Notes: generated by a model from the letters alone, not told the origin. A stretch of 64,000 bases of DNA from Psilocybe cubensis (GCA_017499595.2 CM039007.1:1302001-1366000), one strand, 5' to 3'; counted from the first letter of the stretch, positions 28,099 to 62,725 are shown. Made by a program: numbers and translations.

Positions 28099-28812
28099 TC
28101 ATACCTTTACCCCCTCCAAAATATAAGCGAATGGGTCCGGATCTGCAGGATTGGGTTTATATTCAGATATCTCCTGCGCCATGATTCCGACCTCCTTTGC
28201 AAAATGAACCCTGGCAAACTCGGCAGCGAGGTCCAAACCAGCGGTAATCCCAGCAGAACTCCACAACTTTCCGTCGACCGTGAACCTCTTATCCGTAACC
28301 CATTTGACCTTTTTGAAGTGCTCGTTAGACTCCAATAACCCCGCAGCGGCTAAATCTCGCAGGGCAAGTTTATTGCTCGCTACGGCCCGTCCTTCTAGAA
28401 TGCCTGTCGATGCGACGAGGAACGACGCTGTGCAGATCATGAGCAGTGCAATAAGTTTAGGGTCTTCGAGACGCGCTTTGATGAACTCAGTGAATCCCTT
28501 GGGCGTGCTGAGGAGGTCTGTAGGGCCTGGGATGAATATGCAGTCTAGAGGGGGGCAATCTGCGTATGTGCATGAGGGCAGCTGGAGCGGCCCTGATGTG
28601 GCTTGGATGGGCGTCATATCAGAGGAGATATAGTGCCATTTCATGATCGGCGCCTTGTCGTATGTCGATCTGGGCAGTGTCGAGAGGAGACTGGCTAATG
28701 CGTGAGAGTGGTTATTGAGGTAGTCGACGGGACCTGCACCGTCGAGCCATTGATAGCCAGGGATTAGGACAAGTCCTAGGTTAAGCACTCGAGGAGGCTC
28801 TTGAGAAGACAT
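28099..28812 (-). CDS. DJ-1/PfpI family protein (isonitrile hydratase-like), copy A
   Basis: Intronless 237 aa; YQWLDGAGP, LDCIFIPGP, ICTAS nucleophile elbow, DGKLWSSAGITAGLD. Confidence 0.9.
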   Translation of the reverse strand: MSSQEPPRVLNLGLVLIPGYQWLDGAGPVDYLNNHSHALASLLSTLPRSTYDKAPIMKWHYISSDMTPIQATSGPLQLPSCTYADCPPLDCIFIPGPTDLLSTPKGFTEFIKARLEDPKLIALLMICTASFLVASTGILEGRAVASNKLALRDLAAAGLLESNEHFKKVKWVTDKRFTVDGKLWSSAGITAGLDLAAEFARVHFAKEVGIMAQEISEYKPNPADPDPFAYILEGVKV

Positions 28813-29636
28813 AGTCTGTGACGCAAAATAATTTTCTTCAATAATAAAAGAAGTGAGTTGATTTAAATCCCAACCTTCTTCTATCTCAATTTATATCATG
28901 AGTAGCTCGCATTTAACGTCATGCTGCGCCTTCGCTTCAAGCAGGCTCGAGGAACATCTCATCTATAATAATTTCGGGGATAGATGATTTGCAATCATAA
29001 TTTTCCTTCGCCGAGTCTAATTCAGGTTGCTAACCTCGTCAATAGGTTGAATAACGAAGTAGAAAAAATGATAACCGCCTTGTAAACGTATATTCGGTAA
29101 GCAACGTCCCACACCATGAAAATTTTGCAACCTCTCAACATACTTACTGAATTAGATTGATAATCCGCTGATGGAGTATGACAGAGCATATTCTAAGCAA
29201 AAATGCTTAATGCTAAAGAGAATACCAAGCCGCAGTTCTCCAACGCAAGGTTTGATAGCTGCGCCCGGGGATCTCGGCCTTTTAGGAAAGGTTGAGACGT
29301 CCGTCAACTATAAAATGCATAATTTTAGGATACTTGTGAGTGTGGTTTACTGCTTGTTGGTATTGTCATGATGATTGCATTGAGAAGAAAATACATCCAA
29401 TCAGTTATGTGCTTAATTAGGAATCGGTTGCTGTTATGTGATTATGTACTTATAAATTTTCGGCGCTAAATCCCAAAAACAAGCCTCCCGAATTTCCCAT
29501 GTTCAAAAGCAGCTCAATGCGGAATCGACGGCGAACCATGAAGTTAAAAGCACTAAAAAACGAACATCCAAGACCTATGTAACAGTAGAACACTTGGTCG
29601 AAGCTCTTCCCTTCAAATCATCACCACACCTCCCAA

Positions 29637-30338
29637 TCAGAGCTTTACTCCGTCTAGCATATAAGCAAAGGGATCCGGCTGTGCTGGGTTGGGTCTATAT
29701 TCCGACATCTCCTGGGCCATATCGACAAGTTCTTTCGCTACATAGACTCGTGCAAACTCTGCCGCAAGATCCAACCCGGCCGTAATCCCGGCCGAACTCC
29801 ACACCTTGCCATCTACTGTAAAGCGCTTATCCCCAACCCACTTCACCTTTTTAAAATATCCCTTCTCCAGTGTGCCTTCGGCGGCAAGGTCGCGCAATAC
29901 GAACTTGTTACTCGCCACCTCTTTTCCGTCAAGGATGCCGGTTGCTGCGACACAGAGGGATGCGGTGCAAACTAAGAGGAGGGCGAAGAGCTTAGGGTCC
30001 TCCAGGCGTGCTTTGAGAAACTCTGCGAAGCCATTGGGAAGCGTAAAAATATCCCTTGGTCCTGGGACAAATATGCAATCTAGAGGGGGGCAGTCTGCAA
30101 ATGTGCATGAAGGGAGCTGGAGTGGTCCGGATGTGGACTGTATCGGTGTGAGGTCGGAGGCGATGTAGTGCCAGTTTATTACAGGGGCTTTTTCTTTCAT
30201 GGATTCAGGGAGGAAGGAGATTCCATTTACAATTGCACTGGAGTGGTTGTTTAAGTAGTCGACTGGTCCCGCGGCATCGAGCCATTGGTATCCAGGAAGA
30301 AGAACAAGACCGATGTCGAGTTTTTTGGGGTAAGTCAT
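29637..30338 (-). CDS. DJ-1/PfpI family protein (isonitrile hydratase-like), copy B
   Basis: Intronless 233 aa; YQWLDAAGP, VCTAS, DGKVWSSAGITAGLD; close paralogue of copy A. Confidence 0.9.
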   Translation of the reverse strand: MTYPKKLDIGLVLLPGYQWLDAAGPVDYLNNHSSAIVNGISFLPESMKEKAPVINWHYIASDLTPIQSTSGPLQLPSCTFADCPPLDCIFVPGPRDIFTLPNGFAEFLKARLEDPKLFALLLVCTASLCVAATGILDGKEVASNKFVLRDLAAEGTLEKGYFKKVKWVGDKRFTVDGKVWSSAGITAGLDLAAEFARVYVAKELVDMAQEMSEYRPNPAQPDPFAYMLDGVKL

Positions 30339-31127
30339 ATTGCGGTCAAGGTAAGTTGAGCTGAATTAATGGGTCGTTGGGTATGCTCTAGTTTATAAGA
30401 TTGAGCAGGTGATATAAGACCACCTCTCCTAGGAACGACTAACCTTTATACCATTTCCAATACGTTACGTGGGGCATGCCTTGGTAGAAGGTTTACTCAG
30501 CTATAGAGAAGCTTACCAGTATAACTGCCTAAGCTGTCGGATGGCATGGAACAAGAAATGCACAAATGTGAAGCTTTGAAACTCTGGATGAGTATCAAAT
30601 TCTCAAATCCCGGAAACATAGGCCATTTCAATACGTCTATAGCGGAGCGTAGAGCTAAAATGTGCGTCTTTTTGATGCTTGATGACTATCCACGTTGAAG
30701 CTTACTTGAAGCGTTCTCGATGAAAATAACTGTCGTCTACTAATAACATGTCCGACCACACGGATGAGCGAGACTCCTTTGTATGCAATAAGTCAGGGCC
30801 ATGTCACAAGAAAGCTTTAAACTTACTGCCTTGGTATATCTACTCTCTCACTGAAAGCATAGACCATGTAAGTTTCATCAAGTCATGCAGTATGTCGGCA
30901 TTATGATTTCTTGTAACGCGCTCATCAACACATTCCAAAAAGGAGTGAGATTGGGGTGAGAAAATAGGGGCTACTTGTTATGATCAGGGAACTCCGGTAA
31001 ATAAAAGCTGTCATAGTTGGCACAGCCACCTATACCTTCCGAGGTTAACCAAACCTCAACTCCGAAAACTTGAAAATCGGGCGAGTGGCTTACGGACGAG
31101 TCCTATCGCTCAGGGAGCGTACTTGTG

Positions 31128-37082: not shown

Positions 37083-38389
37083 TCACAGTGTAACTCGCTT
37101 TCCCTCCTTCGCACTCAATGCTATGGCATCGATCAGGCGATGATGCTTGACCGCGTCGTCAATTGTCGCATATGTGCCTGCCTTACTCTTGTCTGCAAAT
37201 TGAGTCCAAGCTGCCCCAATGGCCACTATTGCACCAAATCCCTTCGTCTCCGATTCCACCTTCTCGCCGTTAAGGAAAAGTTCGGGCTCGAAGATGCTGG
37301 GATATGCACCCAGCAAGAAATCTGATTGCAGCTTGATACTGCCCTCTTCGCCATCGATCTCCCAAACAAACTGGTGACGGCCTTCTTTCAACGCATATCC
37401 TGTGCGCCAGAAAACATTAGCAAAAACTCCCGTTTTGAGGAATCCGGTGATAGAGAAGTGGTCTTCGCATTGTGCTTCGAAGGTCTTTCCCGTCGGTTTA
37501 CCGTCGTCTGTGACAATCGTTATAGTTGGATAAAATTTGGCCTCTGTTGCTGTCAGGCTGGCAAACTCGCCAAGGACGTGCTGGAGAGTATCGAGCTGAT
37601 GTGCGATGGCAATTGTTAAGATGTTTACCCCTGCATGAGAATCCTCAGCGACTTTCTGGTTCAGAGGCCAGAAATATATAAACCCACCATTTTTCTTCTC
37701 CAAAATGTAAGTGTTACTCTCTTTACTGTTTGGGGCATGGACGTTGGCGTCTCTCGGAATATGAGCAAGCTACAAAATGGGGTTAACATTAATCAGACGT
37801 TTCTAAACCCCATTTATTTTGTGGACTTACAACACTCGTCGACCTGACATTCCCAATGACGCCTGAGGCGAGTATCTCCTTTACCTTAACCAAAGGAGTG
37901 TCAGTCAAGCCAATGCGATAGAATCGTATCTGATATGCTGACCCTGTCGATAACTGCAGAGTGTCGTCCTTGTAGGCCAACAAGGGAGCGCACACCTTGT
38001 TGACGGGCGGCCTCTGCAATCTCTTCTGTCTCCTTTGTCGAAGTACCAGCCGGCCACTCAATAAAGAAGTCCTTCTTGGCCTCAATGGCCTTTAACGCAA
38101 TCTCCTTATGATAGGGTGCTTTCACCGTAATCGCAACCAAATCTACATCAGGATCGGATGCGATTTGCGACGCATCACCGTAATACGTCTTGAGAGAATG
38201 GCCAACTGATTTGGAGTATTTTTCGGCAGACGCTTTTGCTGTTGCTTCCGATGTTGTAGACACGGCAACGATGTCGTATTTCTCACGGACGGAGGGGGCC
38301 AAGAGCGAGGGGGCCACGGCATCAGATGCCCATCCTGCAACGGAAGATAACCCAACAAAACCGACTTTGACTTTAGGAGAAGACGACAT
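37083..38389 (-). CDS. Gfo/Idh/MocA oxidoreductase (Gal80-like), copy 2
   Basis: VKVGFVGLS..GWA, DPDVDLVAITVKAPYH, KDFFIEWPAGTSTKETEEI, ATIDDAVKHHRLIDAI; same three intron positions as copy 1. Confidence 0.9.
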
Positions 38390-39824
38390 TGTCGTGAAAA
38401 GCAGCAAGGTAGCAGGAGCGAATAAGGGTTCGAAATTGATACTGAGAAGGTGAAATCGTGATGCTTCTGTGCCATTTCTCTGCGCGCTTTTATACGCTTG
38501 GCCGGCCCCTCTGTCTGTTATTGTGAACATCGTTGTGTCACGATTTGGGACCAATTGCTGCCTGGGGATGATTAATTACTTGACTTTCTAATCATGTATC
38601 AATCTTTACGGTGTCAAGATCGTCAATCTAGCCTGTGCGTACCGCCAAGGATGACTAATCTGCCTTTAATCCAAGTTCTTTCGACGAAAACACTTCTCCG
38701 TTTTAACAAGTGATTCAGTAACCCTATGCCCAATAAGAATCTCACTACATTCGAGTTCATATGGCGTCAACATACATTCTCATTAACCCGGCTTTTCCCG
38801 AACTTTCGATAGAAGTTAGTCAACAAACAGAGCAAATGTAGGCTTGATATTTACTTGATATAGGTCTTTTTTTGACACAAATTTTTGAATCATAAGCCTA
38901 TAGGTACGGATTTTCGCTTTTGGTTTCTTTTCCCGGTCCCTCTTACGACACGGATTCCATTAGCATTGTTAGTTACTTCTACCTTTGGCATACTTGGTGT
39001 ATTTATGGACATGCGTCGGTAAAGGAAGATCATCATACTATTTTTATAGCAATTTTTCTGCAGCCTGAGGCGCCCAGAAAACACAGTTTGCGTGAGCGAG
39101 GAATCCGTATGTCAGGATTTTAGACAAGTGATAAATTGTTAAAGGTGTTTATAATATGGAATTGCGAATCTTTCGCTTGGGAGTGGAACATGTTGATTTT
39201 TGAACTAATTCCAGGAGCTTCTTGACGCGATTGACATCAAAATTCAATGCTGTCAACTTACCGACTTCAATGAGATCAGTAGTAAATAAACAAAATGAGA
39301 AAAGATGGGCTAGCAAGACAACCTGTACGACGAAGATACTTGGCTGAACTTGAGTTCAGTCCATGCTCTGGCGTTTTAGCGGTCAAATACGGCTCTGAAA
39401 GGTCAAAGATTAAATGGTCTCACAGCTTATGACACTTTCTAAGCTTTGAATCCCCGCAGCACCCATTGATCTTCTGATTTCTCCACAGCACATGAGGACC
39501 TCTCTTGGTATTTGATGGATTGACCGGCGGTGCACAGCACTTTATGATATGATAGGTTATCCTGAACAAAACTCTGAACCGTCTACTGCGCGAATATGTA
39601 AAGCGCAGTCAAATCATCGCCGCCTTTCAGGAAGTAGATTGGCTCGTAAGCAATGCATAAAGCAATATATAAGCTAAAATACTCCCAACATCTGTCGGCC
39701 CAGGTATTTGTCCACACTCATTTGCGCTCTATTACTTGGCAAACCGTCAACGGTTAACGTTGACCGCAAAACATAAAAACGGCGTACATCGTCAATCACA
39801 CTTTACTATACTTTTCCAATCTTC

Positions 39825-45203: not shown

Positions 45204-48200
45204 TCAAATTGGCACTGTGCCTCTCAGTCTGATATCTCGGCTGCTAGCGCCAATGGAAACGCCGATCTTGCCTGCAGGTTTCGCCCATCCCTGGCGCTCA
45301 ACGTCCCATATTGATAGGTCGTATCGTGAGAGTGTAATGGTAACGGTGGTCTTCTGCCCAGGGGAAACTTCAACGTTCGTGAACCCTCTCAAGACAGAAG
45401 GCGGCTCTCCTGACGATGAAGGGAAGTTAATGTATAACTGAGGAATCTATTCAATAAAAATCGTCAGTACATTGAAGCAATGTTATCTCATAAACAGGGA
45501 CGAACATCTCCACCGAAGACAGATCCCGTGTTCTTGACTTGGAATTTAGCCTGGTATGCTGGTCGATGTAACCTGTGAACAGTTCAGTCTAGTACCAACC
45601 GAAAATTAAGTGAACCATAGCTTACCATAGAGCCCTTGAAGAACCTTCACCGATCAGTGTGGCATTGCCGTTCTCCCAGGCTTTGATCAAAGGCTGGTCT
45701 GCTGGAGTCGCTTCGGCTGCAATTTTGGATACGCTAAGACCACTATAAGCGAATGTCGTATAACTCAATCCAAATCCGAATTCGAATCGAGGAGTAATGT
45801 TGAACTACAGAAAAGGTGCTTAGCATTGATTTTTTAATCTGTAAAATTAGGCTCACCGAATCAAAGTGTCGGTAATCAATGTTCAACCTGCATCGCAAAA
45901 TTAAATAAATATTATACTAGAAAAGCGGGTCTCGCAATGGAAAAAACTTACCCTTCTGTGTATGGGATTGCGAGAACATCACGATTATTGCCACCAAGAT
46001 TAACCTGGGCAGGATAGTCGGAGACGCTCTTGGCAATAGTGTAAGGCAACCTTCCAGACGGATTCCAAGCACCGTAGAGCACGTCTACGAGGGCGTTGCC
46101 GACTTCAGTTCCTGGAAGTCCTGCCCATACCACAGCAGTCACGTTAGGGTGCTCAATCCATGGCTCGAGGATGAGAGGCCCAACGCTGTTCACGATGACG
46201 ATGGTGTTGTTGTTCTGAGCGGCTACTGCCTGAACCAAGGCATCACCTCCGTGCCAAGCTGTCAGGTTTTTACTACCATGGGGTCAATTTTCGACATCGT
46301 CTTGGGAAGATCTGAAGATACTGACCGGTCACCTTCATTTCCGTCAACAGTGATGTAGTCTTCTCCACTGTCAGAAACGAGGAAAACAAGAGCAGTCGTT
46401 CTCTTCTTCGCCATATTTCCAGCGCGAGGGAGGTTGAAGTCATCGAAGAACCAAGAAATACTGGAGTGGAACTCCCGGGCTTTCGATTGGATTGCATCGA
46501 GAGGCTAATAATAATGGGGTAAGAATTTCAAGTACATAAATGTAAAAAAGGCGACGTACGGTAACAAGGTACGTGAAATTGGCAGTTCCTGAACCCCAGC
46601 CCATGGCAAGGACACCATCAGAACCTCCCTTTACAATACAAAATCAGCATAATTGTTCTCGCTAAAGTATAAACATTCGCATACCTGATCAGAAAATTCA
46701 TTCGGACCTGCCTTTCCAGGGCCAGCACCGCTGCCAACCAGCACGATGCTTCTGTCCTTCTTACCAAGAGGTAGCGCGCCTCTCTCATTCTTGAGCAACA
46801 CTGCGCTGGCAGCGCCAATCTCTCTGACAATTTTATCGTGGTCATCCTGAACATCAATGCGTTCATTGGTTGCATCGTCGTCTGGGTTGAATGCGTTAAA
46901 GTTTGTCGCTGGGTATGATGGCTGGTCTTGTTTGAGGAGGTACCAGGACGCGAGGATACGCGTGGCCATATCGTCGACGCGGCTTTCAGGGATGGTTCCG
47001 TTGTTGACATAGTCCGTCAGATTGGGACCGAAGTACGAGGTCTCAGAGTTGAATGTGATATCTCCCGGCATTGTCATCTTTTGTTACGTTAGTTTGATAC
47101 TGGAAGTAAAGTGATAAGTTGGGGAGATTGAAACTCACATCCAGACCAGTTATGGCGGATATCGTGGTGTGTTGACTAGAATGAATAGAGTTATAGTTTA
47201 GCATTGCATTTTAATACATGTAGAGAAGCCACAATCAGTACTTACGCAGACCAATCGGACATAACAACTATACAAAACTGTTAGAAGCGGCATTCTTTAT
47301 CGTGAAAAGAAACAGGATCCTTACATCCTTGAAATCCGAACTCCCGTTTCAGTATGTCGTTCAGGACCTTATCGTTCTCGCAAGCATAGGTACCGTTGAG
47401 AAGATCTAAAACCAGGCAAATTCAGCACGAAATAGCAGGAAATAAGCGGAAAATTACACACTGTAGCTGCACATCACACTGCTAACACCAGCCATCACAC
47501 TTCTTAAGAATGGATGAGCATAAATTTCATGCATTGTCCTATCGTCAATATCAGAGCTCGATATGGTCCTGAAATGTTCCTGTTCGCTGTACAAGAAGAC
47601 CGTTTAGCAATTCTTATCTTTCTAAAAACAGTGCCATGGCAGGCCTCCGACCAAAAAAAAAGAGGTAATACTTACTTTCCAATGAAGTGTTTCGCGCACG
47701 CCTGAACACCTCCCTGTTGCATACCCAAAATGGTTTCGAATGCCGCTTCACCAGTCAGGAACGGGTCTGCTCCAAACCCTTCCCAATTTCGGCCTCCTTC
47801 GGCTAAACGTCCCATGTTCATCATGGGCCCTAATGCGATGTTGACTCCCTTTCCCTTGTGTTCCTGGCCCATGGCCAACCCACGCGCGCGAATTATCCGG
47901 CGATTGAAGCTACAAATTTTTACATTTTTAGAATTCTAATTTTCCTGTCCAAATATGAGGGGAAAGTTTAACGTACGTAGCTGCAGCATTGATACCAGCG
48001 GGGAACGCAGTAACAAAATCTCCGAAACGCACCCCGAGTGGTGAATCCTAACCGTACATTACTTAGCGACTAGAAACAATCTGCATAGAGAAATAACTAA
48101 CCTCCAAGCATAAACCTGGCCACCCACGACCTCGAGCGGGTTCTATGGCAGCAATGTTACCCTATTCGGATATGAAAGCAGAAGACAAGGTTTGCGCCAT

Positions 48201-51746: not shown

Positions 51747-54639
51747 TCAACAGGTGTCTATCAACCTATTTTTTGGCCACGGCTCTTGCACATCTGCCCA
51801 GTCAGTAAGGTTGGCGTTTGTATACGCTCGTTGGAAGCTATGCAAAAGCAGATTTAGGTACTGAGGAGCGATTGTAGTTCTACCATAAACCACTCACGTT
51901 TCAATGTACTTCGCTGTGGGGAAGTCTTTGGGGTCACATCCGACGTTCAATGAATCGGCTGGCTGGTACACTCTGATATAATCGATACTCATGGTGGCAG
52001 GGAATATCAGGTTATCAAAGTCGACTGTCCCAAACCCAAGGGAGAGACCAAGATTGGCAATGATGTACTAGTTTTGTAAGAACAAGATAAATATCCTCCG
52101 ACAAACGATCACAGTGATGATGACAAACCATTGGCTCTGAAGAGATCGGACGTTGGCTGATCTCGCTCTCCGTGTTTGCACCCATCGCAGGTCCTTTGAG
52201 CGTCCAGGATAGCTGTCCAGAACTGACCCAAGTGATGTACCCGTCGTCAAACCTGCAGCAGGATGATTTAAAAAAACAAACCTATTTATAATCATGTGTT
52301 CCAGAAAGACGCACCCAGGTTTGTACTCGAAACCATACACTGATGAACATTGAGACCCAAGTTCGTAACATTCTTGGCTTGTCGTTGCTAATCCACTTGT
52401 AGTTTGCTGGAAAGCTCCTGCGGTACAAACGGATTGAACATGAAAACATAGGTTCAAATGGTATCGCTTGACAAACCTCCGATGAAGGTATTCTTGATGG
52501 TGTCGACGTTCTGAATAATTATGTTGTCTGTGGAATTGCTCACGATATATCCAGCCTAAAACAGACACGGAATGTACGATTTGGGATATTGAAATAAAAT
52601 TCTGGTCAATTCCGCTCACGTCAAATGGAGCCCATTGTGCAGACAAAGATGCCTGAAAGAATTTCTGCTCAACACCAGACTAGAGTAAAGCTTCTGATAC
52701 ACGCGCACCTGACCGACACCATTATTGACTATAGCTTCCAGTACATCGATTTCGGGAGAGGAGCGACCAACAAAAGTGCCGTCTGGCCGAATGGGTCCAG
52801 GGTGAGCCTCTCCAGGACACGTACAAGCAGCTTTCGAGCACATGTAAGATATTGTACTTAGATAGAGTGTATGAAATGCTCCTACAGAGTTTTTGTCCAG
52901 GTAGCAAAGACTAATTAAACGATTATTCCCTATCTCGTGAAATGATAGTATACCAAGTACACACCAATTGTCCGTTGTAGTTTGGATCTCCGCCAATAAT
53001 AGCTGCAGCTGGTGTTGTTATGTCAGGTGAGGAGGAAAGAGATGGTGGGTACGTCTGATTTGCAAGAGTGCCGACATCGCAGGAGTCGTAAGTGTAAGGC
53101 CACTGAAAATTAAAAACCCATTTTAGACAAGAGAATGTGCGAGTATTTGGCCCGAAACCTACTACTCCGTCTAAACTGCCTCCGAACCCTGCCCGGCCTA
53201 CAGTTAGGGGTTAGAACTGAATGTTTCCGGTATAGCACGGGAGGTCGGATACCTAGATTTCCCATAGTCCATCTGCTCACGTCAAAAAAGTGAATATGAA
53301 GCACGTCAAATTACTTACAGTGCAGGCCAAAGACCGCTAGACAGCCGACAGCTTAGCTTGTGAAATAGAATGCAAGGAAAATCAAAAGAGTTACCTGACA
53401 TTGTTTGATCCAGGAAGAATAATTCCAGCTTGTAGCTTAATAAGTAAACCTGTGTGAGTGAAAATAATTAATAGAAATACCTTCAATAATGCCTCCAGTG
53501 AAACAGAACTTATTCCTAAATCACGCTGTCAGACGCCAACTCACCATGACATAGACAAGAGCACCACGCACCATGATTGGATCTTTTAGTTCCATAGTAT
53601 GAGTATACATGAATGAAAGAATGCTATAGCGCGTACCATGCCCGACCGATATTGTAGGTTGTGATTGTCAGCGATGTCGTCGACTTTATCGATTCTCAGT
53701 CGAAGGTACCCATCGGATGTTGTGGCTGATGAGATATCAGCCAAAATGAGTAAATGCAGTATATTGGACTGACCTTGCATAGGATCATACCATTCAAGGT
53801 CGACCTAAGGCTGACGTCAACAAGAAATAGAACATATTAGAGAAAGAGGACTCACAGTTCCCCAATAATGAAGGTCAACTGCTTCCCAATAGGGGTCGTC
53901 GCCTGGGTAAAAGGTTCGTCCATCGGTATTGAACTCGTCAGAAAACACCAAAACCATGTCTTGTGTGGGGTCCTGGTATGAAGGCCTCGTATACGCTTCT
54001 CTAGGGGTGTCTTTGTCGATGAGACCCCCGTTACTAGAGATCTCAGGGACCTGCCCTGATGCGTTGATCCCTCCAAGGTTGAAACCACCCTGGAAAGATT
54101 GACTCTGGCGTAAATAATGCGAAACTACTGGATAAGCAACACTGGGTGTTCAAAAAGTTGGTTTTATAAGCAAAAAATTATAATTATATATCAAAATATA
54201 CGCACAAAAGAGCGAAGCATCCGATCAAAAGAAGCATGAGACAGCCAATGTTAACGAGAGCCCTCATGGTCAGAATCTTCGAAGGCTCCAACTGGGCTCT
54301 CGGGTCGTGTAGATCATCGTCGGCTTCTCTAGAGTAAAGGGAGATCCCCCACTCCTCAGGAGACGGTCCTAGTGAGTACTGAACGAACTGTTAACCTCCT
54401 GGCTTGGTTGATCTAATATATGCCGCCTTTTTACCTTCTCTGCCATGGTGCCCTGATATAAAAATGAGGACTTGCGCCAATAAAGAAGACTTAAAACTTA
54501 CGTGCAAACTTCCATGCAGGGAACTTCTCTTCGACTTCATTGATGGGCCTCTTCCTAGCCCTTGCTCGACTGGTGAGATTAGATTTGACCTGGAAGCCGT
54601 TGACGATGCTGTAAGTCTGCGCCCGTTGTACAAAGACAT
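51747..54639 (-). CDS. GH16 beta-1,6-glucan synthesis-associated protein (KRE6/SKN1 family)
   Basis: EADDDLHDP, LVFSDEFNTDGRTFYPGDDPYWEAVD, WTMGNLG-RAG, GRSSPEIDVLEA, MYIIANLG, GCDPKDFPTAKYI, WPKNRLIDTC*. Confidence 0.93.
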
Positions 54640-57434
54640 ATTGAAGAAACAAAAAAATGAATGTGGATAAAATACAGGTTAAAACGAAGAAAAGCAAGAA
54701 AATGACGACGTCCAGCGAAACAGTCAGACAAGGGAGGCGACAAGAGCAGGTGAAGGAAGGAACAGCAGTGAGATGATCGAGGCTAAAATTAACTACATTC
54801 CCATGGTGCTAATTGGAGACGTAGATCATGATATCAATCATTTCTGTTGTTACGCCTGTTCAACTGGGTATAGCAATGAACACCACTGCAAGGAAGACCT
54901 CAGAAATGCTGGCAAAAGAGACTGCAGCTACTATACCTCACACTCGATTCCCGCGAAACTTCATGCACTAGTGACTAGAACATGTAATAATCTCTCCATG
55001 TTTTAATTGAATATCTAAAAGTACCATCGATCTATATTTACCGGACGTTTACCTGACTCTGACAATCAATCAAATTGACTACACAACTATCAAAGGACTA
55101 TCCAAAATACCTTGAATGTCTCCTGATGAATATACGTGTGTAATTGGATTGAACCTTTAGTTCGAGCTTGTACTTTTTATTGACTTGGTCAAACCTCAAC
55201 ACAGTTGGTTAGTCTGCCACTTGATACCCTATTCAAGTTACTTACCTACGTTGCATCATTGGAGTGGTCGTGTTCTAAGAGCTCCCAGTGATACTCCACC
55301 TAGATTCAATTAAGGCTGGCAGTGGCGACCGGAAATGTTGCAGAAGCCAGAGATAACAACTTGAATTGTGCCGTGGCCTTGCCATTAAGAGGGCCTAAGC
55401 GCTAGCTTTAGATGCTGGAGCACGCAGAAGAACTGAAATATAATAGAGTCAAAATCGGAGAGTCGGAAGTCAATTACTTAGTAGTCGAGTGGAGTATCAT
55501 AATACTACTACGAATGTGCGTGCATTACTCATCTGGTTTCATGAACATGGCCTACTGATGCGGCTTATAGATTCCTTTTGGCGGTATTGTAAGTAAGTAG
55601 CATTCATAAAGATGGCCATACATGTTCAAGCCTCAGGACTCCCCATCGGTCACAAGCACAGCTATTAAATATGAAATATGACAATACAATTTTTATTTTG
55701 CGACTTTTTTGATGCCCATGCTACTGCAGCCGCATGATCCCACTCAATGCCCACAGTGGGTAAGTGGGCAGGTCTTGTCAGTGAACTTGAAAATAACAGG
55801 CTTCCGGTCGGCGAAGTTAACATAGGTCCGAAAGACATGCCAAGGAAGCATGATATGCCACCCTCGGTCGCTAGAATGCTACTATAAATAAATACAACTC
55901 ACCAAGAAACGGATCTATATTAAGCAAATTGCTGAGGCGCAAAAGAGTAGAAAAAGAGATCCATTTTGTCCTGAGGCTGACTTGGCGAGTTGGCACCTGA
56001 TACACGTGATTGTTAACCGTGTTTACTTGTGGGAATTCTCGTGGCTCCGTCTTTCTTTCAACAACCACATCCTCCAACAGTCGTTGCTCGATTCCCCTTC
56101 AACCTCGTCAATTAAATGGCTCCCATTCACCTGGTGCTATCTTCAAATGATTGACTGATCACGGTCCAAAGAAGGAGACCCTTGCGCCCTTGGACAGGAA
56201 CACGTTTTCGAAAGCCGTAGACACACCCACATACCCGGTGACCGGTTCTCATCCAAACTTTTGAAATGGCTGAGAAAAATCGGTAATTTGGAGGGTAGAA
56301 ACACCCAATTCCGGCAGTAGAACTTGCCTAACGTTTCAACTGATCAGTGGTGTGTGTCTCTTTCAACGCATAAAATGCTCCATTTTATCGGTATCCGCCC
56401 ACGCTCAGACCCAATATCACGGTTTCTATTGCTTTCGTGCGAGCATCTTTTCTTATATGGTCCCGTAATTAATTTTTTTTCTCTCCTGCCAGGACCCGGT
56501 TCTGAGCTTATGTGCTTTGTTGATAGCCTTCACGCGTGGCAGGCGTCTCTTTTGCTGCGCTTCGCTTCGCCTCCGAAGTCAGTTATAGCTCAAAGCTCGA
56601 TATCTGCGAGAAGGTACTAGAATTGCTCATCGATTGGCTCTACTTTCTTCTCTTTCCCTCATGTGGAAGCTCCCGGACCCAGCGTTCTCGAATTTGAGGA
56701 TAGGATTTCCGACGCGTTATAAAGACTCTGTTATTACTTCAAGCCTCGATGGTGACCAAGATGGATATAACATTACCTATTTAATGGCGCCTTGGACGTC
56801 GTTCTTTGTCTATTTTTATCTCTTTCGACGCTTGGCGCTGTAACACTTAAAATAAATGCGCCGGGCGGAATAAGGCCATGGGAATCACTTTGTCATGTCT
56901 CCTACAAAGGTCAATCTTTCCAAACCGCAGCCTCCGCAGTTCACTTGGAATTTCTTAGCCTGTCATTTTCTACTGGCGACATTTGGTGGATTTGTTGCGA
57001 TCTCCTATCCTCTTGATCGCGTGGAATGGTGCCAAGGCACAAGTTTGCAGACAACTTTCTGTGTCGTTTCTGGGTGTTTATACTTCTCAGAAACCTCCTG
57101 TCCCGTCCGATGCATTCACATTGTCGACTCTTGTGTACCTTCAGATTACAAAACTTCCTAGGCTGTCATACTCGGACCATGGTTATCTATTATATGAAAT
57201 TGCACACTGCGGATGACTCTTGGAATACGGGGTTTTCCTCTTATTCACAGTGTTTCCTCGTCTTTGTCGCCTTGGCGAGCTATTTACAACTTTTCTTTTT
57301 CAAAGCTGTGGGCGCAACATGGAGTAGGCACCCCTGATGCCAAGATCAATCGTTCTTTCCTCAACATTCGGTGAGCAGTCAAATGGAGCGCTCTGAAAAT
57401 ACCTCAGAGTATCTCACCGCATTCAACAATGAGG

Positions 57435-57440
57435 TATAAA
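57435..57440 (+). promoter_or_regulatory. TATA box of the repeat-peptide precursor gene
   Basis: TATAAA about 100 bp upstream of ATG 57533, followed by a pyrimidine-rich stretch. Confidence 0.55.
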
Positions 57441-57532
57441 GAGCCTCGTTTTTTCTCCATGATTTCTTCAGCCTCATACACTTGAACTCGAAGCTTTACA
57501 AACCGCGCTAACAACTCAAAGCCTATTCCAAC

Positions 57533-59484
57533 ATGCACTTCAACAAGAGCTTTGTTGCTTTCATTTTTGCCGCTATCTTGTCGGCTCATGCCATTCCGGT
57601 GCGGATAGTTGTCTTTTCCTTTGCAAATAAACCCTTACTGATTGGTAAACCTTTGTAAATCAGGTTGTACCAGCTGGTGCAGAGTTGGTTTCCCGCAATG
57701 CAGTCGTAGCGAGCAAGCCAATTCAATTTGAGGCTCGCCGCCATGGTGATTCGCATGAACGCGGACGTACCCCAAACAGTCGTGGCCTGGAGGCACGCCG
57801 CCACGGCGATTCTCGTCATAGCACACCTAACAGCCGTGGCTTAGAGGCCCGCCGCCACGGTGATTCTCGCCACAGCACTCCCAACAGCCGTGGTCTCGAG
57901 GCCCGCCGCCACGGTGACTCTCGTCAGCGCACCCCTAACAGCCGTGGCCTTGAGGCTCGCCGCCACGGTGACTCGCACGAACGCGGCCGCACTCCCAATA
58001 GCCGCGGTCTTGAGGCCCGCCGTCACGGAGATTCTCGTCAACGAACCCCCAACAGCCGCGGCCTTGAGGCTCGCCGCCACGGTGACTCGCACGAGCGTGG
58101 TCGCACCCCTAACAGCCGTGGCTTAGAGGCCCGCCGCCACGGCGACTCTCGTCAGCGCACTCCCAACAGCCGTGGTCTTGAGGCCCGCCGCCACGGCGAT
58201 TCTCGTCAACGCACTCCCAACAGCCGTGGTCTTGAGGCTCGCCGCCACGGTGACTCGCACGAGCGTGGTCGCACCCCCAACAGCCGTGGTCTCGAGGCCC
58301 GCCGCCACGGTGACTCTCGTCAGCGCACCCCTAACAGCCGTGGCCTTGAGGCTCGCCGCCACGGTGACTCGCACGAACGCGGCCGCACTCCCAATAGCCG
58401 CGGTCTTGAGGCCCGCCGTCACGGAGATTCTCGTCAACGAACCCCCAACAGCCGTGGCCTTGAGGCTCGCCGCCACGGTGACTCGCACGAACGCGGCCGC
58501 ACCCCCAACAGCCGTGGTCTCGAGGCCCGCCGCCACGGCGATTCTCGTCAGCGAACCCCCAACAGTCGTGGCTTGGAAGCTCGCCGCCACGGAGACTCTC
58601 GTCAGCGCACTCCCAACAGCCGTGGTCTTGAGGCCCGCCGCCACGGCGATTCTCGTCAACGCACTCCCAACAGCCGTGGTCTTGAGGCTCGCCGCCACGG
58701 TGACTCGCACGAGCGTGGTCGCACCCCCAACAGCCGTGGTCTCGAGGCCCGCCGCCACGGCGATTCTCGTCAGCGAACCCCCAACAGTCGTGGCTTGGAA
58801 GCTCGCCGCCACGGAGACTCTCGTCAACGCACTCCCAACAGCCGTGGTCTTGAGGCCCGCCGCCACGGAGACTCTCGTCAACGCACTCCCAACAGCCGTG
58901 GTCTTGAGGCCCGCCGCCACGGCGATTCTCGTCAGCGAACCCCCAACAGTCGTGGCTTAGAAGCTCGCCGCCACGGTGACTCGCACGAACGTGGACGTAC
59001 CCCAAACAGCCGACGTGGCTTGGAAGCCCGCCGCCACGGTGATTCTCGTCAACGCACCCCCAACAGCCGACGTGGTCTCGAGGCTCGCCGCCACGGTGAC
59101 TCTCATGAGCGTGGACGTACCCCCAACAGCCGACGTGGTCTCGAGGCTCGCCGCCACGGTGACTCTCATGAGCGTGGACGTACCCCAAACAGCCGACGTG
59201 GTCTCGAGGCTCGCCGCCACGGTGACTCGCATGAGCGTGGTCGCACCCCAAACAGCCGTGGTCTTGAGGCCCGCCGCCACGGAGACTCTCGTCAACGCAC
59301 CCCAAACAGCCGTGGACTCGAAGCCCGCCGCCACGGTGACTCTCATGAGCGTGGACGCACCCCAAACAGCCGACGTGGCTTGGAAGCTCGCCGCCACGGT
59401 GATTCTCGTCAACGCACTCCCAACAGCCGTGGCTTGGAGGCTCGTCGACACAACTCTGGCTCTCGTCACAGGCGATCCATCTAA
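57533..59484 (+). CDS. Secreted KEX2-processed repeat protein (KEP)-type peptide precursor, 628 aa
   Basis: Exon 1 (57533-57598) MHFNKSFVAFIFAAILSAHAIP is a signal peptide. Phase-0 GT-AG intron 57599-57663. Exon 2 VVPAGAELVSR... is in frame with the 599-aa ORF holding 30 LEARR-delimited repeats. Confidence 0.9.
57742..59448 (+). repeat. Coding tandem array of 30 units of 54-63 bp
   Basis: 12x HGDSHERGRTPNS, 16x HGDSRQRTPNS, 2x HGDSRHSTPNS, each followed by R(R)GLEARR. Unit lengths plus flanks sum to the 599-aa ORF. Confidence 0.97.
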
Positions 59485-59945
59485 TTTTACCGGACACCGC
59501 ATCTTCATCGGCCATCTCGTCTCCCCAGGTTTCTTGTTTTCTGTCTTCTCATCTCTCCTCGTCTTTTTAAAATTTGATATGAACGCTCTTCATGAACTCA
59601 CAATCGTCCAATAAATCGCTACTTTCTCAAGTAGTTGTGCCTCTGGTTTCGTAAAATTGTCGTACAAAATGTATTGTCGGATATTATCTGAAACGAATTG
59701 ATGTGTTGTTCTGCTGCCTATTACTCTGTATTCCATCCTTGTTTAAACGGTCTTGGAGCGAACGACCTGAGGGGTTGTCGTGGACTCAGTGACCTAGCCA
59801 CATATGAAACTAAGTCAAGTTATCGTTTTCATATCATAACCTAGAGATTTCGATATTCCATTACAAAGCCACATTCGTTCGCTATTTAGGACAAAACCCT
59901 GTTCCGCGACGATTCAAGAATACTTTAAACTATTCGTTTCCCGCC

Positions 59946-62725
59946 TTAAGTATACTTTCGATAAAATTTGCTAGCTATTCGAGGAGATTTACCTTTCAGG
60001 TCGCCGTCCTTGATTAGTGCCGCCCCTAAAACAAATTAACATGATGTCAATTACAACTGAAGGTCAGATTTTAACGGGTGTTCTCACCTTTTTCTCCGAC
60101 GAAGTATGCGGTAGCTTTTATAAGGATGTATAAGCACGTAACCTCAAAACTTGAAAATTGATGATCCTCACCTTGAGTGTGCGCTGCAATCTGAAGAGGA
60201 AGCACGGATAGATCAACTACACGTAGGTTTTTGGTCCCATACACCTAAATATAACTGTTTAGAACTAGCACTATAAACGAGATAAATTGTATGCACCTTG
60301 AGGTTGTAATCTACCACGCCTTCTTTCTCTCGAGGAAGCATCGAGCAACTCCCGGTTGTGTCTGTAAGTTGTTAGACGCAACTGAAGAGATTCAGGGGAA
60401 AGCACAAGCGGGAACTCACGCCAGATGGTCGCGATGCAGTTTTTCACATATTCTAGAAAGAATTTTGATATCAGGAGGCCAAGTACCAGTGTATTCCCAA
60501 GTCAAGTTTTTACCTTTGATTTCATTGTCTGTCTTGAGGTGTTCACCGGGGTCGGTCTCACGAATAATGCCTGATTTCCATGGCTCTGTATCAGCAAGGC
60601 TCTTGATAAACTTCACATGCTGTGCAAGAACTTCCAGATCTTAAATACAAGATTGATACGTCAGCTTTCAACCAAATTATACCCCAGTCTTACCGGTTTC
60701 GCTTTCAAGGTAGTGTGGGTCAATCGTTGGGTTGAGGAGAGGGTCACTGCTTTGGATATGCTGCGTTGTTTATTCATTACGATAAATCATTTACTAAAGA
60801 CATTGAAAAGAACGCACGATAGTCCCTCTAGACATTGGGTGGTTCAAAATTCCTACCAAGGTAGTGTATAGCTTTCCCGGTTCAGGAGCAACTTCGAAAT
60901 ATTCAGTGCCGCAAGCCAACTTTGCCACAGTAAAAGCACCTACCAGCCCTGGAAGCAAAAAAGGGCATAACGACAATTTCGCAATCTGGAACTTTCTCAT
61001 CTTTGAGGATATCTAACTGAATGTCCAGTTGCTCTTTGATGCCAGGCCTAAGCGTTCCGCTCTTTTCGAGAGCTTTGACTTCCTCTTCAGCTTGTGAGAT
61101 AATTCTCAAGGCTTCGGAGCGATCAATCGCCGTCAATGGGAAGTACGCAAACGAGGTCAGTCCTTTGCGGAATGCGCCTTTCCCTAAAGCACTGTAAAAT
61201 GAATTCTCGAAGGTCAGGCAACATTTTTGATATGAAATTAAGTAGACATTTAACTGGAGTTCAATTTGCTTGGCTGCGTACTCTGGGTCTCTGAGGAAGT
61301 CCAACGTTTCGTGGGGTATCTTTGGATCGAGTTCGAAGGTAACAGGACAGCCGTAATGTTCCTGAACATTCTCACCGACACCGGGGAGGCTAATCTCTAC
61401 CTTAATTCCCAACGGTTCCAATATATCTGGATTTCCGATGCCAGACAGCTCTAGGATCTGTGGAGACTTGATGGATCTATTCAAAAGTAAGCATAATATT
61501 AACATTCTTGAAAACCTACTAAACGTTACCCGGCGCTTAGGATCACCTCTTTGTCGACCATAACTTTGTGTTTAGTTCCATCATGTATGAACTCTACTCC
61601 ATTAACAATACGATCATCATTTCCTTCACTCTCATTGAGAAGCACTTTAGAGACATAAGCTCCTGTCAATACCTAAAAGGAAATATGAGTGTGACTCGCT
61701 CTGTAGTTTTAATGATTACCAAAAATTGCCTACGCTGAGGTTCTCCCTCTTCAAATTGGGAACGAGATACGTATTGGCAGAGTATGAACGGGTCCAAGTT
61801 CTTGGATCGATACTAGAGGATGCAATCCAGGTCCCGGTCATCTTGGTTGATCTATATAAATGTCTGGATTTGAAAGAAAGATTATTCAAGCTTACATCGC
61901 CATCGTAAGGATCGTCAACCTCTTTTAGCCCTTTATTCACCATTGTCTCCTGGAAAAGCTCATCCAAAGTGTGCACACTATGAGATATAGCTACTTGAAT
62001 TGGACCGGTTGTGCCTCGATGCTCGACAATGAATTTGTGTGGATACAAATCAGTCTGCTCCTTAGTCGGCGGATGGAAGCTGGAAGTTGCCATCTAAACG
62101 AAAGACGAGGTTGAAACCTGATGTAGTGATAACTCACGTCTCGGATCTCTTAGAGTATTTCTCGTATTCAGCCCAGTTCCATCCTCGATTTCCTAGCTTC
62201 TCGTATGCATTAATATCCTCCGCGGGTGGTTTTATCCATGCAAAAAAGTTCATGCCAGAACTGCCACCTGTGTTTCAAATTTTCAGTCGGAGATTTAATC
62301 ACAGGTCTTGTCACACCGTTTACTTACCTAAACCTTTTCCTCTTTGCCACATGTGCTCAATATTATTGGCGTGCTTCTGCTTTACTACAGGAAATGCCCA
62401 GTCATACTGTATCGGAATTCGTGAGTGCCTTCTAAAAAGGTCGTCCTAGTTAACAGCACTTACCTTAGGATTTCCGAAGGTCCTCAAAAATTGGGCTGGA
62501 ACTTCAATCAAGGGATCATTGAGATTTTCCTCTCCCGCTTCTAGTACGAGGACCTTTACGGAGGGATCTTCTGAGAGACGAGCTGCAACAGTGAGTCCGG
62601 CAGTCTATGTTGAAGGTGTGAGTAATTTGCCGCCCATAAGTTAAACGAGGTAAACGTACTCCTCCTCCTATCACGACGTAATCAAAAGGACTCTTGACTG
62701 TCTCTTCGACGTTGACGATTGGCAT
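59946..62725 (-). CDS. GMC oxidoreductase (CAZy AA3), no signal peptide
   Basis: FDYVVIGGG-TAGL, VLVLEAG, RGKG-LGGSSGMNF, RSYSA, SPQILELSGIG, LPGVGENVQEH, TIWH-TTGSCSMLP, VYGTKNLRVVDLS..AAHTQ. Confidence 0.93.

What the first reader, a model, noticed from the sequence alone, without database searches (positions are those of the whole stretch)
57533..59484. Secreted 30-copy peptide precursor (KEP architecture) predicted to release His/Arg-rich HGDS...TPNS peptides
Seen: the ORF track starts at a TTG, but an upstream exon supplies a real ATG and signal peptide. A short pro-region is followed by 30 near-identical units, each preceded by LEARR (FEARR before unit 1). Known: signal peptide plus dibasic-delimited repeats is the alpha-factor/candidalysin/ustiloxin-precursor (KEP) architecture, processed by Kex2 and trimmed by Kex1. 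Inference: one translation yields about 30 peptides of three types, HGDSHERGRTPNS (12), HGDSRQRTPNS (16) and HGDSRHSTPNS (2), some possibly retaining RGLEA. I do not recognise these cores as any described fungal peptide. The N-terminal His-Gly-Asp-Ser(-His) could bind metal, and the Arg-rich part suggests signalling, defence or polyanion binding.
Basis: partly seen in the sequence, partly recalled or inferred. Interest (0 to 1): 0.85.

Follow-up and report, generated by a model that had tools for sequence, protein, structure and literature searches.

The report
Thirty-copy secreted peptide precursor gene
A mushroom-type fungus carries a real two-exon gene for a secreted protein built of 30 near-identical short units separated by protease cutting sites, the largest known member of an unnamed family found across mushroom-forming fungi that probably releases many copies of small histidine-started peptides of unknown role.

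Summary
Exon 1 (57533-57598) encodes a signal-peptide-like start. A 65-nt GT-AG intron follows. Exon 2 (57664-59484) encodes a short pro-region, 30 units of HGDS..TPNSR(R)GLEARR and a short tail. The 30 units have 24 different DNA sequences but only 5 protein sequences. All 24 variants in the 15 shared codons are synonymous, so this frame is translated and under strong selection.

The gene is not an orphan. I found 17 gene models in 15 Agaricomycete species of five orders, all named 'hypothetical protein'. They share the signal peptide and units of the form dibasic site, HG(D/SG)S core, dibasic site, acidic spacer, dibasic site. A Psilocybe cyanescens model has the same spliced N-terminus.

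It meets every sequence criterion of a Kex2-processed repeat protein (KEP). It lacks the marks of ustiloxin-type RiPPs and of alpha-factor-type pheromones.

Canonical cutting therefore gives mostly 16- and 18-mers ending in RGLEA.

No RNA evidence could be obtained, and processing and function are untested. Verdict: a new member of a known kind, of moderate interest.

The parts
57435..57441 (+). TATAAAG, a TATA-box-like motif 92 nt upstream of the ATG
   Evidence: Read directly. This is a consensus match only, not tested.
57533..57598 (+). Exon 1: 22 codons, MHFNKSFVAFIFAAILSAHAIP, with the start in CAACATG context
   Evidence: 21 of the 22 residues are identical to the N-terminus of the P. 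cyanescens model P0008 (V8 is I there).
57533..57592 (+). Predicted signal peptide of 20 residues, with cleavage after AHA
   Evidence: Lys5 in the n-region; the 12-residue h-region SFVAFIFAAILS has mean Kyte-Doolittle hydropathy 2.43; Ala at -3 and -1. This is heuristic; SignalP was not available.
57599..57663 (+). Intron, 65 nt, GTGCGG...CTGAT...CAG
   Evidence: If unspliced, exon 1 reads on to a stop at 57656-57658. The splice restores the frame into the array. No RNA evidence was found.
57664..59484 (+). Exon 2, 606 codons plus stop, with no Met codon
57593..57741 (+). Pro-region (interrupted by the intron): IP + VVPAGAELVSRNAVVASKPIQFEARR, ending in the first RR site
   Evidence: It aligns with the pro-region of P0008.
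57742..59448 (+). Array of 30 units of 18-21 residues, HGDS-(RQR|HERGR|RHS)-TPNS-R(R)-GLEA-RR
   Evidence: Exact internal duplications of 179 nt (offset 396), 167 nt (offset 450) and 107 nt (offset 222) show recent multi-unit expansion.
58972..59217 (+). Units 23-26, which keep the inner dibasic site (TPNSRR|GLEARR)
59332..59394 (+). Unit 29, which also has the inner RR
59449..59484 (+). Tail HNSGSRHRRSI plus stop, a degenerate unit of the HGSGSRHRR type seen in Gymnopilus junonius
59610..59615 (+). AATAAA, 126 nt after the stop codon
   Evidence: Read directly. This is a consensus match only.

Best explanation
This is a real, spliced, protein-coding gene of an Agaricomycete. The organism is probably a Psilocybe or a close relative; that is inferred from the near-identical N-terminus of a P. 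cyanescens model. The gene encodes a Kex2-processed repeat protein (KEP).

Proposed mechanism, with every step after the sequence itself inferred:
1. The 20-residue signal peptide takes the 628-residue precursor into the ER and is removed after AHA.
2. In the late Golgi a Kex2-type convertase cuts after each RR. There are 31 FEARR/LEARR sites, 5 inner TPNSRR sites and one RR in the tail.
3. A Kex1-type carboxypeptidase trims the C-terminal Arg residues.
4. One translation then yields 15 copies of HGDSRQRTPNSRGLEA, 8 of HGDSHERGRTPNSRGLEA, 2 of HGDSRHSTPNSRGLEA, 4 of HGDSHERGRTPNS, 1 of HGDSRQRTPNS and 5 of GLEA. If the single Arg after TPNS is also cut, as seen for other KEPs, all 30 units give the short form.

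The peptides are linear, very hydrophilic and nearly neutral, and they start with an invariant His-Gly-Asp-Ser. This N-terminus is the part conserved across the whole family, so it is probably the functional end, either as a ligand for a receptor or for a metal ion outside the cell. Which of these applies is not known.
For: - The frame is translated and under selection. There are 24 DNA variants of 30 units but 5 protein types. pS is 0.48 against zero amino-acid differences in the 15 shared codons; the computed pN of 0.0116 comes only from averaging paths between Leu codons.
- The gene model holds together. There is no ATG in exon 2. The splice gives the same N-terminus as the annotated P. cyanescens protein PPQ93499.1.
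- All sequence criteria for a KEP, as stated in PMC6339444 and PMC7329392 (passages read), are met.
- The family is conserved. 17 models from 15 species in Agaricales, Polyporales, Geastrales, Gomphales and Phallales carry [KR]R|HG(D/SG)S-core-RR|acidic spacer-[KR]R units. Most of the models that begin at the true N-terminus share the signal peptide M[QH]F[KN]K[NS]F..AIPxP. That both dibasic sites and the residues just after the cut are conserved is what is expected if cutting matters.
- RR sites of a basidiomycete KEP were shown to be cut, and cuts after single Arg were also seen, in PMC9769878 (sections 5 and 6 read).
- The protein is not a folded domain. It is 26% Arg, GRAVY is -2.03, and the AlphaFold2 single-sequence model has pLDDT 33 with no secondary structure.
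Against: - There is no direct evidence of transcription, splicing, secretion or cleavage for this gene or for any family member.
- SignalP could not be run.
- 25 of 30 units have lost the inner dibasic site that all other family members keep, so the product set differs from the family norm and is uncertain.
- The intron's 5' site, GTGCGG, is not the commonest fungal form (my own knowledge).
- Strong selection acts on every residue, including the GLEA 'spacer'. This would also fit a function of the intact chain.
- Some family counts rest on automatic gene models. Several of these run out of frame or are fused.
Confidence: 0.75

Rival explanations
1. The protein is a secreted or wall-bound polycationic, disordered repeat protein that acts as an intact chain, for example by binding polyanions such as wall glucans, DNA or polyphosphate. 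On this view the RR pairs are part of the charge pattern and are not cutting sites.
For: The mature chain has pI 12.0, a net charge of +86 and 46 His. It is predicted to be unstructured. Selection covers every residue of the unit, spacer included. 25 of 30 units have lost one of the two dibasic sites.
Against: A protein with 37 dibasic sites that passes through the Golgi is unlikely to escape Kex2-type cutting. RR sites in a basidiomycete KEP were cut (PMC9769878). In the other 17 models each unit carries two dibasic sites flanking an acidic spacer, the layout of a precursor rather than of a polycation. The residues most conserved across species are those right after the cut, HG(D/SG)S.
Confidence: 0.15
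2. The gene is the precursor of a modified, cyclised RiPP of the ustiloxin/dikaritin type. The cores would be cross-linked by neighbouring tailoring enzymes after Kex2 cutting.
For: The precursor layout is the same as for dikaritins (PMC9769878 introduction). A fragment of a GMC oxidoreductase gene lies about 1.4 kb downstream.
Against: No unit contains Tyr, Trp or Phe. None of the 40 ORF fragments scanned across the 64-kb window matched DUF3328/UstYa, tyrosinase, P450 or a methyltransferase. Only 6.1% of basidiomycete KEP genes have a DUF3328 neighbour (PMC7329392).
Confidence: 0.04
3. The region is not a gene. It would be a GC-rich minisatellite whose open frames are a by-product of the repeat.
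For: All six frames are open over long stretches of the array. No RNA holder was found.
Against: Variation is confined to synonymous sites of one frame (P about 8.5e-15). Homologous proteins with the same N-terminus and the same unit logic exist in five orders.
Confidence: 0.01

Closest known systems
Kex2-processed repeat proteins (KEPs) of Agaricomycetes, e.g. Coprinopsis cinerea KEP 490115 (Vogt et al. 2022, PMC9769878)
   Same: Both have a signal peptide, a short pro-region and tandem short cores bounded by RR. Both give linear products. Neither has a tailoring cluster.
   Different: There is no sequence likeness to the peptides named in that paper's main text; the strings HGD, EARR and TPNS each occur 0 times. 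There is no XA/XP Ste13 motif after the cut, no N-terminal Gln and no C-terminal Trp. The array has 30 units, in a protein far longer than the under-300-residue limit of that paper's second screening method.
Yeast alpha-factor precursor MFalpha1
   Same: One secreted precursor carries many copies of one peptide, released by Kex2 and trimmed by Kex1.
   Different: Alpha-factor spacers (EA/DA dipeptides) stay on the peptide's N-terminus and are removed by Ste13 (PMC6339444). Here the acidic spacer lies between two dibasic sites, or stays on the C-terminus, and the peptide starts directly with His. Basidiomycete mating pheromones are of the lipopeptide a-type (PMC9769878).
Ustilago maydis Rep1 repellent precursor
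   Same: It is a basidiomycete KEP cut by Kex2 into about ten or more peptides.
   Different: Rep1 peptides are 37 residues long and shape the hyphal wall (PMC6339444) as amyloid-like fibrils (PMC9769878). The peptides here are 11-18 residues long and extremely hydrophilic (GRAVY -2.03).
Ustiloxin/phomopsin (dikaritin) precursors
   Same: Signal peptide plus many dibasic-bounded short cores.
   Different: Those cores hold Tyr and Ile for cyclisation, and their genes sit beside DUF3328 genes (PMC7329392). Neither is the case here.
Uncharacterised homologues: PPQ93499.1 (Psilocybe cyanescens), KIP01253.1 (Phlebiopsis gigantea), TCD60952.1 (Steccherinum ochraceum), KAF8586281.1 (Ramaria rubella), Clacol_007457 (Clathrus columnatus) and others
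   Same: True family members. They share the signal peptide, the RR|HG(D/SG)S unit starts and the acidic xLxA spacers.
   Different: They have 1-17 recognisable unit starts against 30 here. Where a full core-spacer unit can be read, the inner RR is kept; the exception is the first unit of the P. cyanescens model, which has the same single-Arg SRGLEA form as the window. Their cores are different (HGDSHG, HGDSRERSQD, HGDSKGRGDSHD, HGSGSRGRGDSRG). The RTPNS core is seen only in the window and in the first unit of P. cyanescens.

Membership tests
KEP (Kex2-processed repeat protein; Le Marquer 2019, Umemura 2020) | N-terminal ER signal peptide | tested here: met
   Heuristic test only: Lys5, a 12-residue hydrophobic core with mean hydropathy 2.43, and Ala at -3 and -1. 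Most family models that begin at the true N-terminus have a homologous start. SignalP was not available.
KEP (Kex2-processed repeat protein; Le Marquer 2019, Umemura 2020) | At least three near-identical repeated motifs | tested here: met
   30 units of 5 protein types. The threshold of three is from PMC6339444.
KEP (Kex2-processed repeat protein; Le Marquer 2019, Umemura 2020) | Repeats separated by KR, RR or KK sites | tested here: met
   RR precedes all 30 units, and 5 units have a second RR.
KEP (Kex2-processed repeat protein; Le Marquer 2019, Umemura 2020) | Repeats fill at least 15% of the protein, and there is no membrane span | tested here: met
   The units cover residues 49-617 of 628. 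After the signal peptide there are no hydrophobic stretches: V 0.8%, I 0.5%, F 0.2%. The 15% rule is from PMC6339444.
KEP (Kex2-processed repeat protein; Le Marquer 2019, Umemura 2020) | [quoted passage not shown] | not testable with these tools
   This needs peptidomics and kex mutants.
KEP (Kex2-processed repeat protein; Le Marquer 2019, Umemura 2020) | The gene is expressed and spliced as modelled | tested here: inconclusive
   No RNA holder was listed. Two runs guessed to be RNA laid nothing on 57150-57760. Support is comparative only.
Dikaritin / ustiloxin-type RiPP precursor | A DUF3328 (UstYa) gene within about 15 genes | tested here: not met
   0 of 40 ORF fragments across the window matched it. 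Only 4.5 kb lies downstream of the gene, and short exons may have been missed.
Dikaritin / ustiloxin-type RiPP precursor | An aromatic residue (Tyr) in the core for cross-linking | tested here: not met
   There is no Y or W anywhere, and the single F is in the pro-region.
Alpha-factor-like pheromone precursors (Ste13 signature) | XA/XP dipeptides directly after the Kex2 site | tested here: not met
   Every cut is followed by H-G-D-S. The motif definition is from PMC6339444.
Suprabasin GxHH repeat (PF21009) | A score above Pfam's gathering threshold | tested here: not met
   26.7 bits against a cut-off of 31. This is a compositional match of a repeat.

The most novel reading that the evidence does not exclude
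The HG(D/SG)S peptides would be a conserved, Agaricomycete-wide class of secreted small ligands whose invariant N-terminal His-Gly-Asp-Ser is the active end. They could be hormone-like signals between hyphae or tissues. Alternatively they could be small metal-binding peptides that use the free N-terminal His, with Asp3 and His5, to hold Cu, Ni or Zn outside the cell. The window's gene would then be a lineage-specific 30-fold amplification that also changed the product by dropping the inner cut.
Probability: 0.2. Interest if true: 0.7.

Novelty: new member of a known kind. Interest (0 to 1): 0.42.

Why it matters
KEPs are catalogued by the thousand, but very few have known products or roles. 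For basidiomycetes, the main text of the 2019 survey names only one conserved repeated motif, XSDW.

A second family would be a good candidate for a peptide with a general role in mushroom-forming fungi. This one is conserved from Phallales to Agaricales, has an invariant peptide N-terminus, and in this genome has 30 copies under strong purifying selection.

The predicted products are few, abundant per transcript and of defined mass. The question can therefore be tested directly by the published peptidomics protocol.

Tried and rejected
- **RNA evidence.** No RNA holder was listed. Four runs were laid on 57150-57760. The two runs guessed to be RNA laid nothing. Two DNA-type contig sets hold the stretch with 2 changes (57389 C>T, 57608 G>A) and no joint. 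This says nothing about expression.
- **Own genome.** None is held, so paralogues and kex genes of this organism could not be searched.
- **Pfam on the protein.** The only hit was a sub-threshold Suprabasin repeat match, which I rejected as compositional.
- **Representative search.** It gave 36 hits at E up to 0.001. I fetched 11: 4 are family members, and 7 (P0012, P0022, P0023, P0026, P0031, P0032, P0036) are unrelated repeat proteins. The other 25, among them the top-scoring P0004 (6209 residues, E 5.4e-74, 27% identity), were not examined; nearly all are proteins of several hundred residues or more matching at about 18-33% identity.
- **Profile search.** It gave 24 hits. 5 were the query rows and 12 were fetched. 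7 unnamed short fragments (P0050-52, P0054-57) were not examined.
- **ESM Atlas.** The best score was 0.86, all hits were repeat proteins of animals or bacteria, and none was usable.
- **Synteny with the Clathrus model.** The C2-domain part of P0003 finds nothing in the window. The fusion in that model is probably an annotation artefact.
- **Earlier findings of this scan.** There was nothing for this place or sequence. The word search returned only bacterial, archaeal and amoebal cases, which I did not use.
- **Literature.** 0 papers hold RRHGDS, the two long cores, HGDSHG, HGDSRER or PPQ93499. 0 papers hold six locus tags of homologues. The main texts of PMC6339444, PMC7329392 and PMC9769878 hold no HGD or EARR string. 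Their supplementary KEP tables, which may well list some homologues, are closed.
- **Chance resemblances considered and dropped.** The RGDS motif occurs in the cores of Clathrus, Ramaria and Lentinus but is absent from the window. The cores also loosely resemble animal secretin-family N-termini (recalled from memory); there is no Phe6 and no helix.

Full report
**Observation**

- The mechanical ORF begins at TTG 57685 and ends at 59484.
- Upstream, ATG 57533 opens 22 codons, MHFNKSFVAFIFAAILSAHAIP.
- A 65-nt GT..AG intron (57599-57663) with a CTGAT branch-like site joins these in frame to 57664.
- Exon 2 has no Met codon at all. The 611-codon open frame therefore has no ATG start unless exon 1 is spliced on.
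- If unspliced, exon 1 runs into a stop at 57656-57658.
- A TATAAAG lies 92 nt upstream of the ATG and an AATAAA lies 126 nt after the stop. These are consensus matches only.

**Anatomy of the protein**

The spliced protein has 628 residues. After a 20-residue signal-peptide-like start and the pro-region IPVVPAGAELVSRNAVVASKPIQFEARR come exactly 30 units:

| Copies | Unit |
|---|---|
| 15 (the last is followed by the tail) | HGDSRQRTPNSRGLEARR |
| 8 | HGDSHERGRTPNSRGLEARR |
| 4 | HGDSHERGRTPNSRRGLEARR |
| 2 | HGDSRHSTPNSRGLEARR |
| 1 | HGDSRQRTPNSRRGLEARR |

The tail after the last unit is HNSGSRHRRSI.

Tandem Repeats Finder reports the array with periods 54, 114 and 168. Exact internal duplications of 179, 167 and 107 nt, at offsets of 396, 450 and 222 nt, show that the array grew by copying blocks of several units.

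**Is it a gene?**

Yes.
- The 30 units have 24 different DNA sequences but 5 protein sequences.
- In the 15 codons common to all units, 16 of 45 nucleotide sites vary. Fifteen are third positions and one is the first position of the Leu codon.
- All 24 distinct variants at these sites are synonymous. Only 35 of 135 possible single changes would be, which gives about 8.5e-15 for all 24 being silent by chance.
- Pairwise pS is 0.48. The computed pN of 0.0116 arises only from averaging paths between CTN and TTR Leu codons; there is no amino-acid difference in these columns.
- Within each core type the variable segment also differs only synonymously.
- This rules out a non-coding minisatellite and rules out the other five frames, which are open only because of the repeat.

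**Relatives**

The gene is not an orphan.
- A word-indexed search found one protein of similar length, a Clathrus columnatus model fused to a C2-domain protein.
- The exhaustive HMMER search (36 hits, 11 fetched) and the 'shorter' search added Psilocybe cyanescens, Steccherinum ochraceum, Phlebiopsis gigantea, Ramaria rubella and Lentinus brumalis.
- A profile of five of these found 24 hits. 12 were fetched and 7 unnamed fragments were left unexamined. The new species are Cubamyces menziesii and C. lactineus, Trametes sanguinea and T. punicea, Mycena venus, Gymnopilus junonius, Paramarasmius palmivorus, Grifola frondosa and three models of Sphaerobolus stellatus.
- In all this makes 17 models in 15 species, every one named 'hypothetical protein'.
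- Taxonomy look-ups place five of the species in five orders: Agaricales, Polyporales, Geastrales, Gomphales and Phallales. The orders of the other ten species are from my own knowledge.

**What the family shares**
- A homologous signal peptide, M[QH]F[KN]K[NS]F...AIPxP, in most of the models that begin at the true N-terminus.
- Units that begin with a dibasic site followed by HG(D/SG)S.
- A hydrophilic core of 6-14 residues, such as HGDSHG, HGDSRERSQD, HGDSKGRGDSHD or HGSGSRGRGDSRG.
- A second dibasic site, then an acidic spacer (DLEA, ELDA, ELAA, DEIEA), then the next dibasic site.

The P. cyanescens model starts MHFNKSFIAFIFAAILSAHAIPVVPAGAEL. This is the junction predicted for the window, and its first unit is HGDSRGRTPNSRGLEARR. 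It is independent, though only predictive, support for the splice. It also suggests that the window comes from a Psilocybe or a near relative (inference).

The window's tail HNSGSRHRR matches the HGSGSRHRR unit type of Gymnopilus. No second copy of the hallmark lies elsewhere in the window: all 30 of 30 matches are inside the gene.

**Mechanism**

The gene meets every sequence criterion used to define KEPs. These are a signal peptide, at least three repeats, KR/RR/KK between them, and repeats filling at least 15% of a non-membrane protein (criteria from passages of PMC6339444 and PMC7329392; tests).

The likely route is:
1. Signal peptidase cuts after AHA.
2. A Kex2-type enzyme cuts after each RR.
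3. A Kex1-type enzyme trims the Arg residues.

In Coprinopsis cinerea KEPs expressed in Pichia, RR sites were cut and several products ended after a single Arg (PMC9769878, section 6).

Canonical cutting here predicts 25 peptides of 16 or 18 residues ending in RGLEA, 5 peptides of 11 or 13 residues ending in TPNS, 5 copies of GLEA, a 26-residue pro-peptide and small tail pieces.

Every other core-spacer unit read in the family keeps RR at that place. The exception is the first unit of P. cyanescens, which already has the single Arg. The Psilocybe-type unit therefore looks like a derived form in which core and spacer have mostly fused.

**What the peptides might do**

After trimming they are nearly neutral (net 0 to +1), contain no hydrophobic residue except Leu and Ala, and are predicted to be unstructured. 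This does not fit membrane-active antimicrobial peptides or Rep1-like wall peptides.

The part conserved across five orders is the free N-terminus, His-Gly-Asp/Ser-Ser. That points to a ligand whose N-terminus matters, either for a receptor or for a metal. Neither is tested.

**Rivals**
- An intact polycationic protein (pI 12.0, net +86) remains possible. It is disfavoured by 37 dibasic sites in a secretory protein and by the family's two-site unit layout.
- A dikaritin-type RiPP is unlikely. There is no Tyr or Trp. No DUF3328 or other tailoring enzyme was found among the 40 ORF fragments scanned across the window. The genes recognised within about 12 kb are a GH3 glycosidase and SKN1/KRE6 upstream and a GMC oxidoreductase downstream, with ordinary genes further upstream.
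- An alpha-factor-like pheromone is excluded by the missing XA/XP signature.

**Novelty**

The kind is known: 7878 KEPs in 838 types plus 2560 singletons were catalogued in PMC7329392 (abstract). Thirty repeats is high but not a record. The 2019 survey found 3 to 129 repeats, with 38 as the second largest.

I found no paper whose full text holds the motifs or the locus tags of homologues. The main texts of the three KEP papers do not mention them. Their closed supplementary tables may list some members.

I therefore file the gene as a new member of a known kind, belonging to a conserved but unnamed family.

**Limits**
- No RNA run holding the gene was found.
- No genome of the organism is held.
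- SignalP was not available.
- Family counts rest on automatic gene models. Several of these are fused or drift out of frame.

Noticed in passing
proteins P0011, P0041, P0042, P0049, P0058, P0059, P0021 (public gene models of homologues): Several annotated homologues leave the HG(D)S frame part-way and continue as Ala/Val/Thr-rich text that looks like an out-of-frame reading of the same repeat. The tails of P0042 and P0049 and the head of P0021 match the window's +2 frame translation (E 1e-6, 7e-7 and 3e-3 in a tiny database with composition correction off). The other four models tested (P0011, P0041, P0058, P0059) gave no match. The annotated unit counts in some other species are thus probably too low.
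   Followed up: partly
protein P0003 (Clathrus columnatus Clacol_007457): The 897-residue model joins about 17 HGDS units to a C2-domain protein. The C2 part has no match in the window, so the fusion is probably a gene-model artefact.
   Followed up: partly
window 21552-22960 (+) and 37086-38575 (-): Two copies of a GFO/IDH/MocA oxidoreductase with a Gal80p-like C-terminal domain lie in opposite orientation about 14 kb apart.
   Followed up: no
window 28102-28890 (-) and 29640-30365 (-): A tandem pair of DJ-1/PfpI family genes.
   Followed up: no
window 11909-13579 (-): A long ORF with a HET (heterokaryon incompatibility) domain, E 4.7e-13.
   Followed up: no
window 6771-8750 (-): A 660-codon uninterrupted ORF with only a weak, sub-threshold DDE_3 endonuclease match (E 2.9e-4, 21.1 bits against a cut-off of 28.6). 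It may be a transposase remnant.
   Followed up: no
window 19472-20254 (-): A family 2 (heme-thiolate type) peroxidase fragment, E 1.6e-17.
   Followed up: no
window 52071-54149 (-), 46634-47083 (-), 60906-61571 (-): Genes recognised around the KEP gene: an SKN1/KRE6 beta-glucan synthesis protein (three exon fragments), a GH3 glycosidase fragment and a GMC oxidoreductase fragment. Nothing suggests a functional link.
   Followed up: partly
window 57389 and 57608: Two DNA contig sets of coded runs carry C>T at 57389 (promoter) and G>A at 57608 (intron) and are otherwise identical over 57150-57760. These are strain-level variants outside the coding sequence.
   Followed up: no
window 57459-57485: A short upstream ATG (ATG ATT TCT TCA GCC TCA TAC ACT TGA) lies between the TATA-like motif and the main ATG. 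Whether it lies within the transcript is unknown.
   Followed up: no
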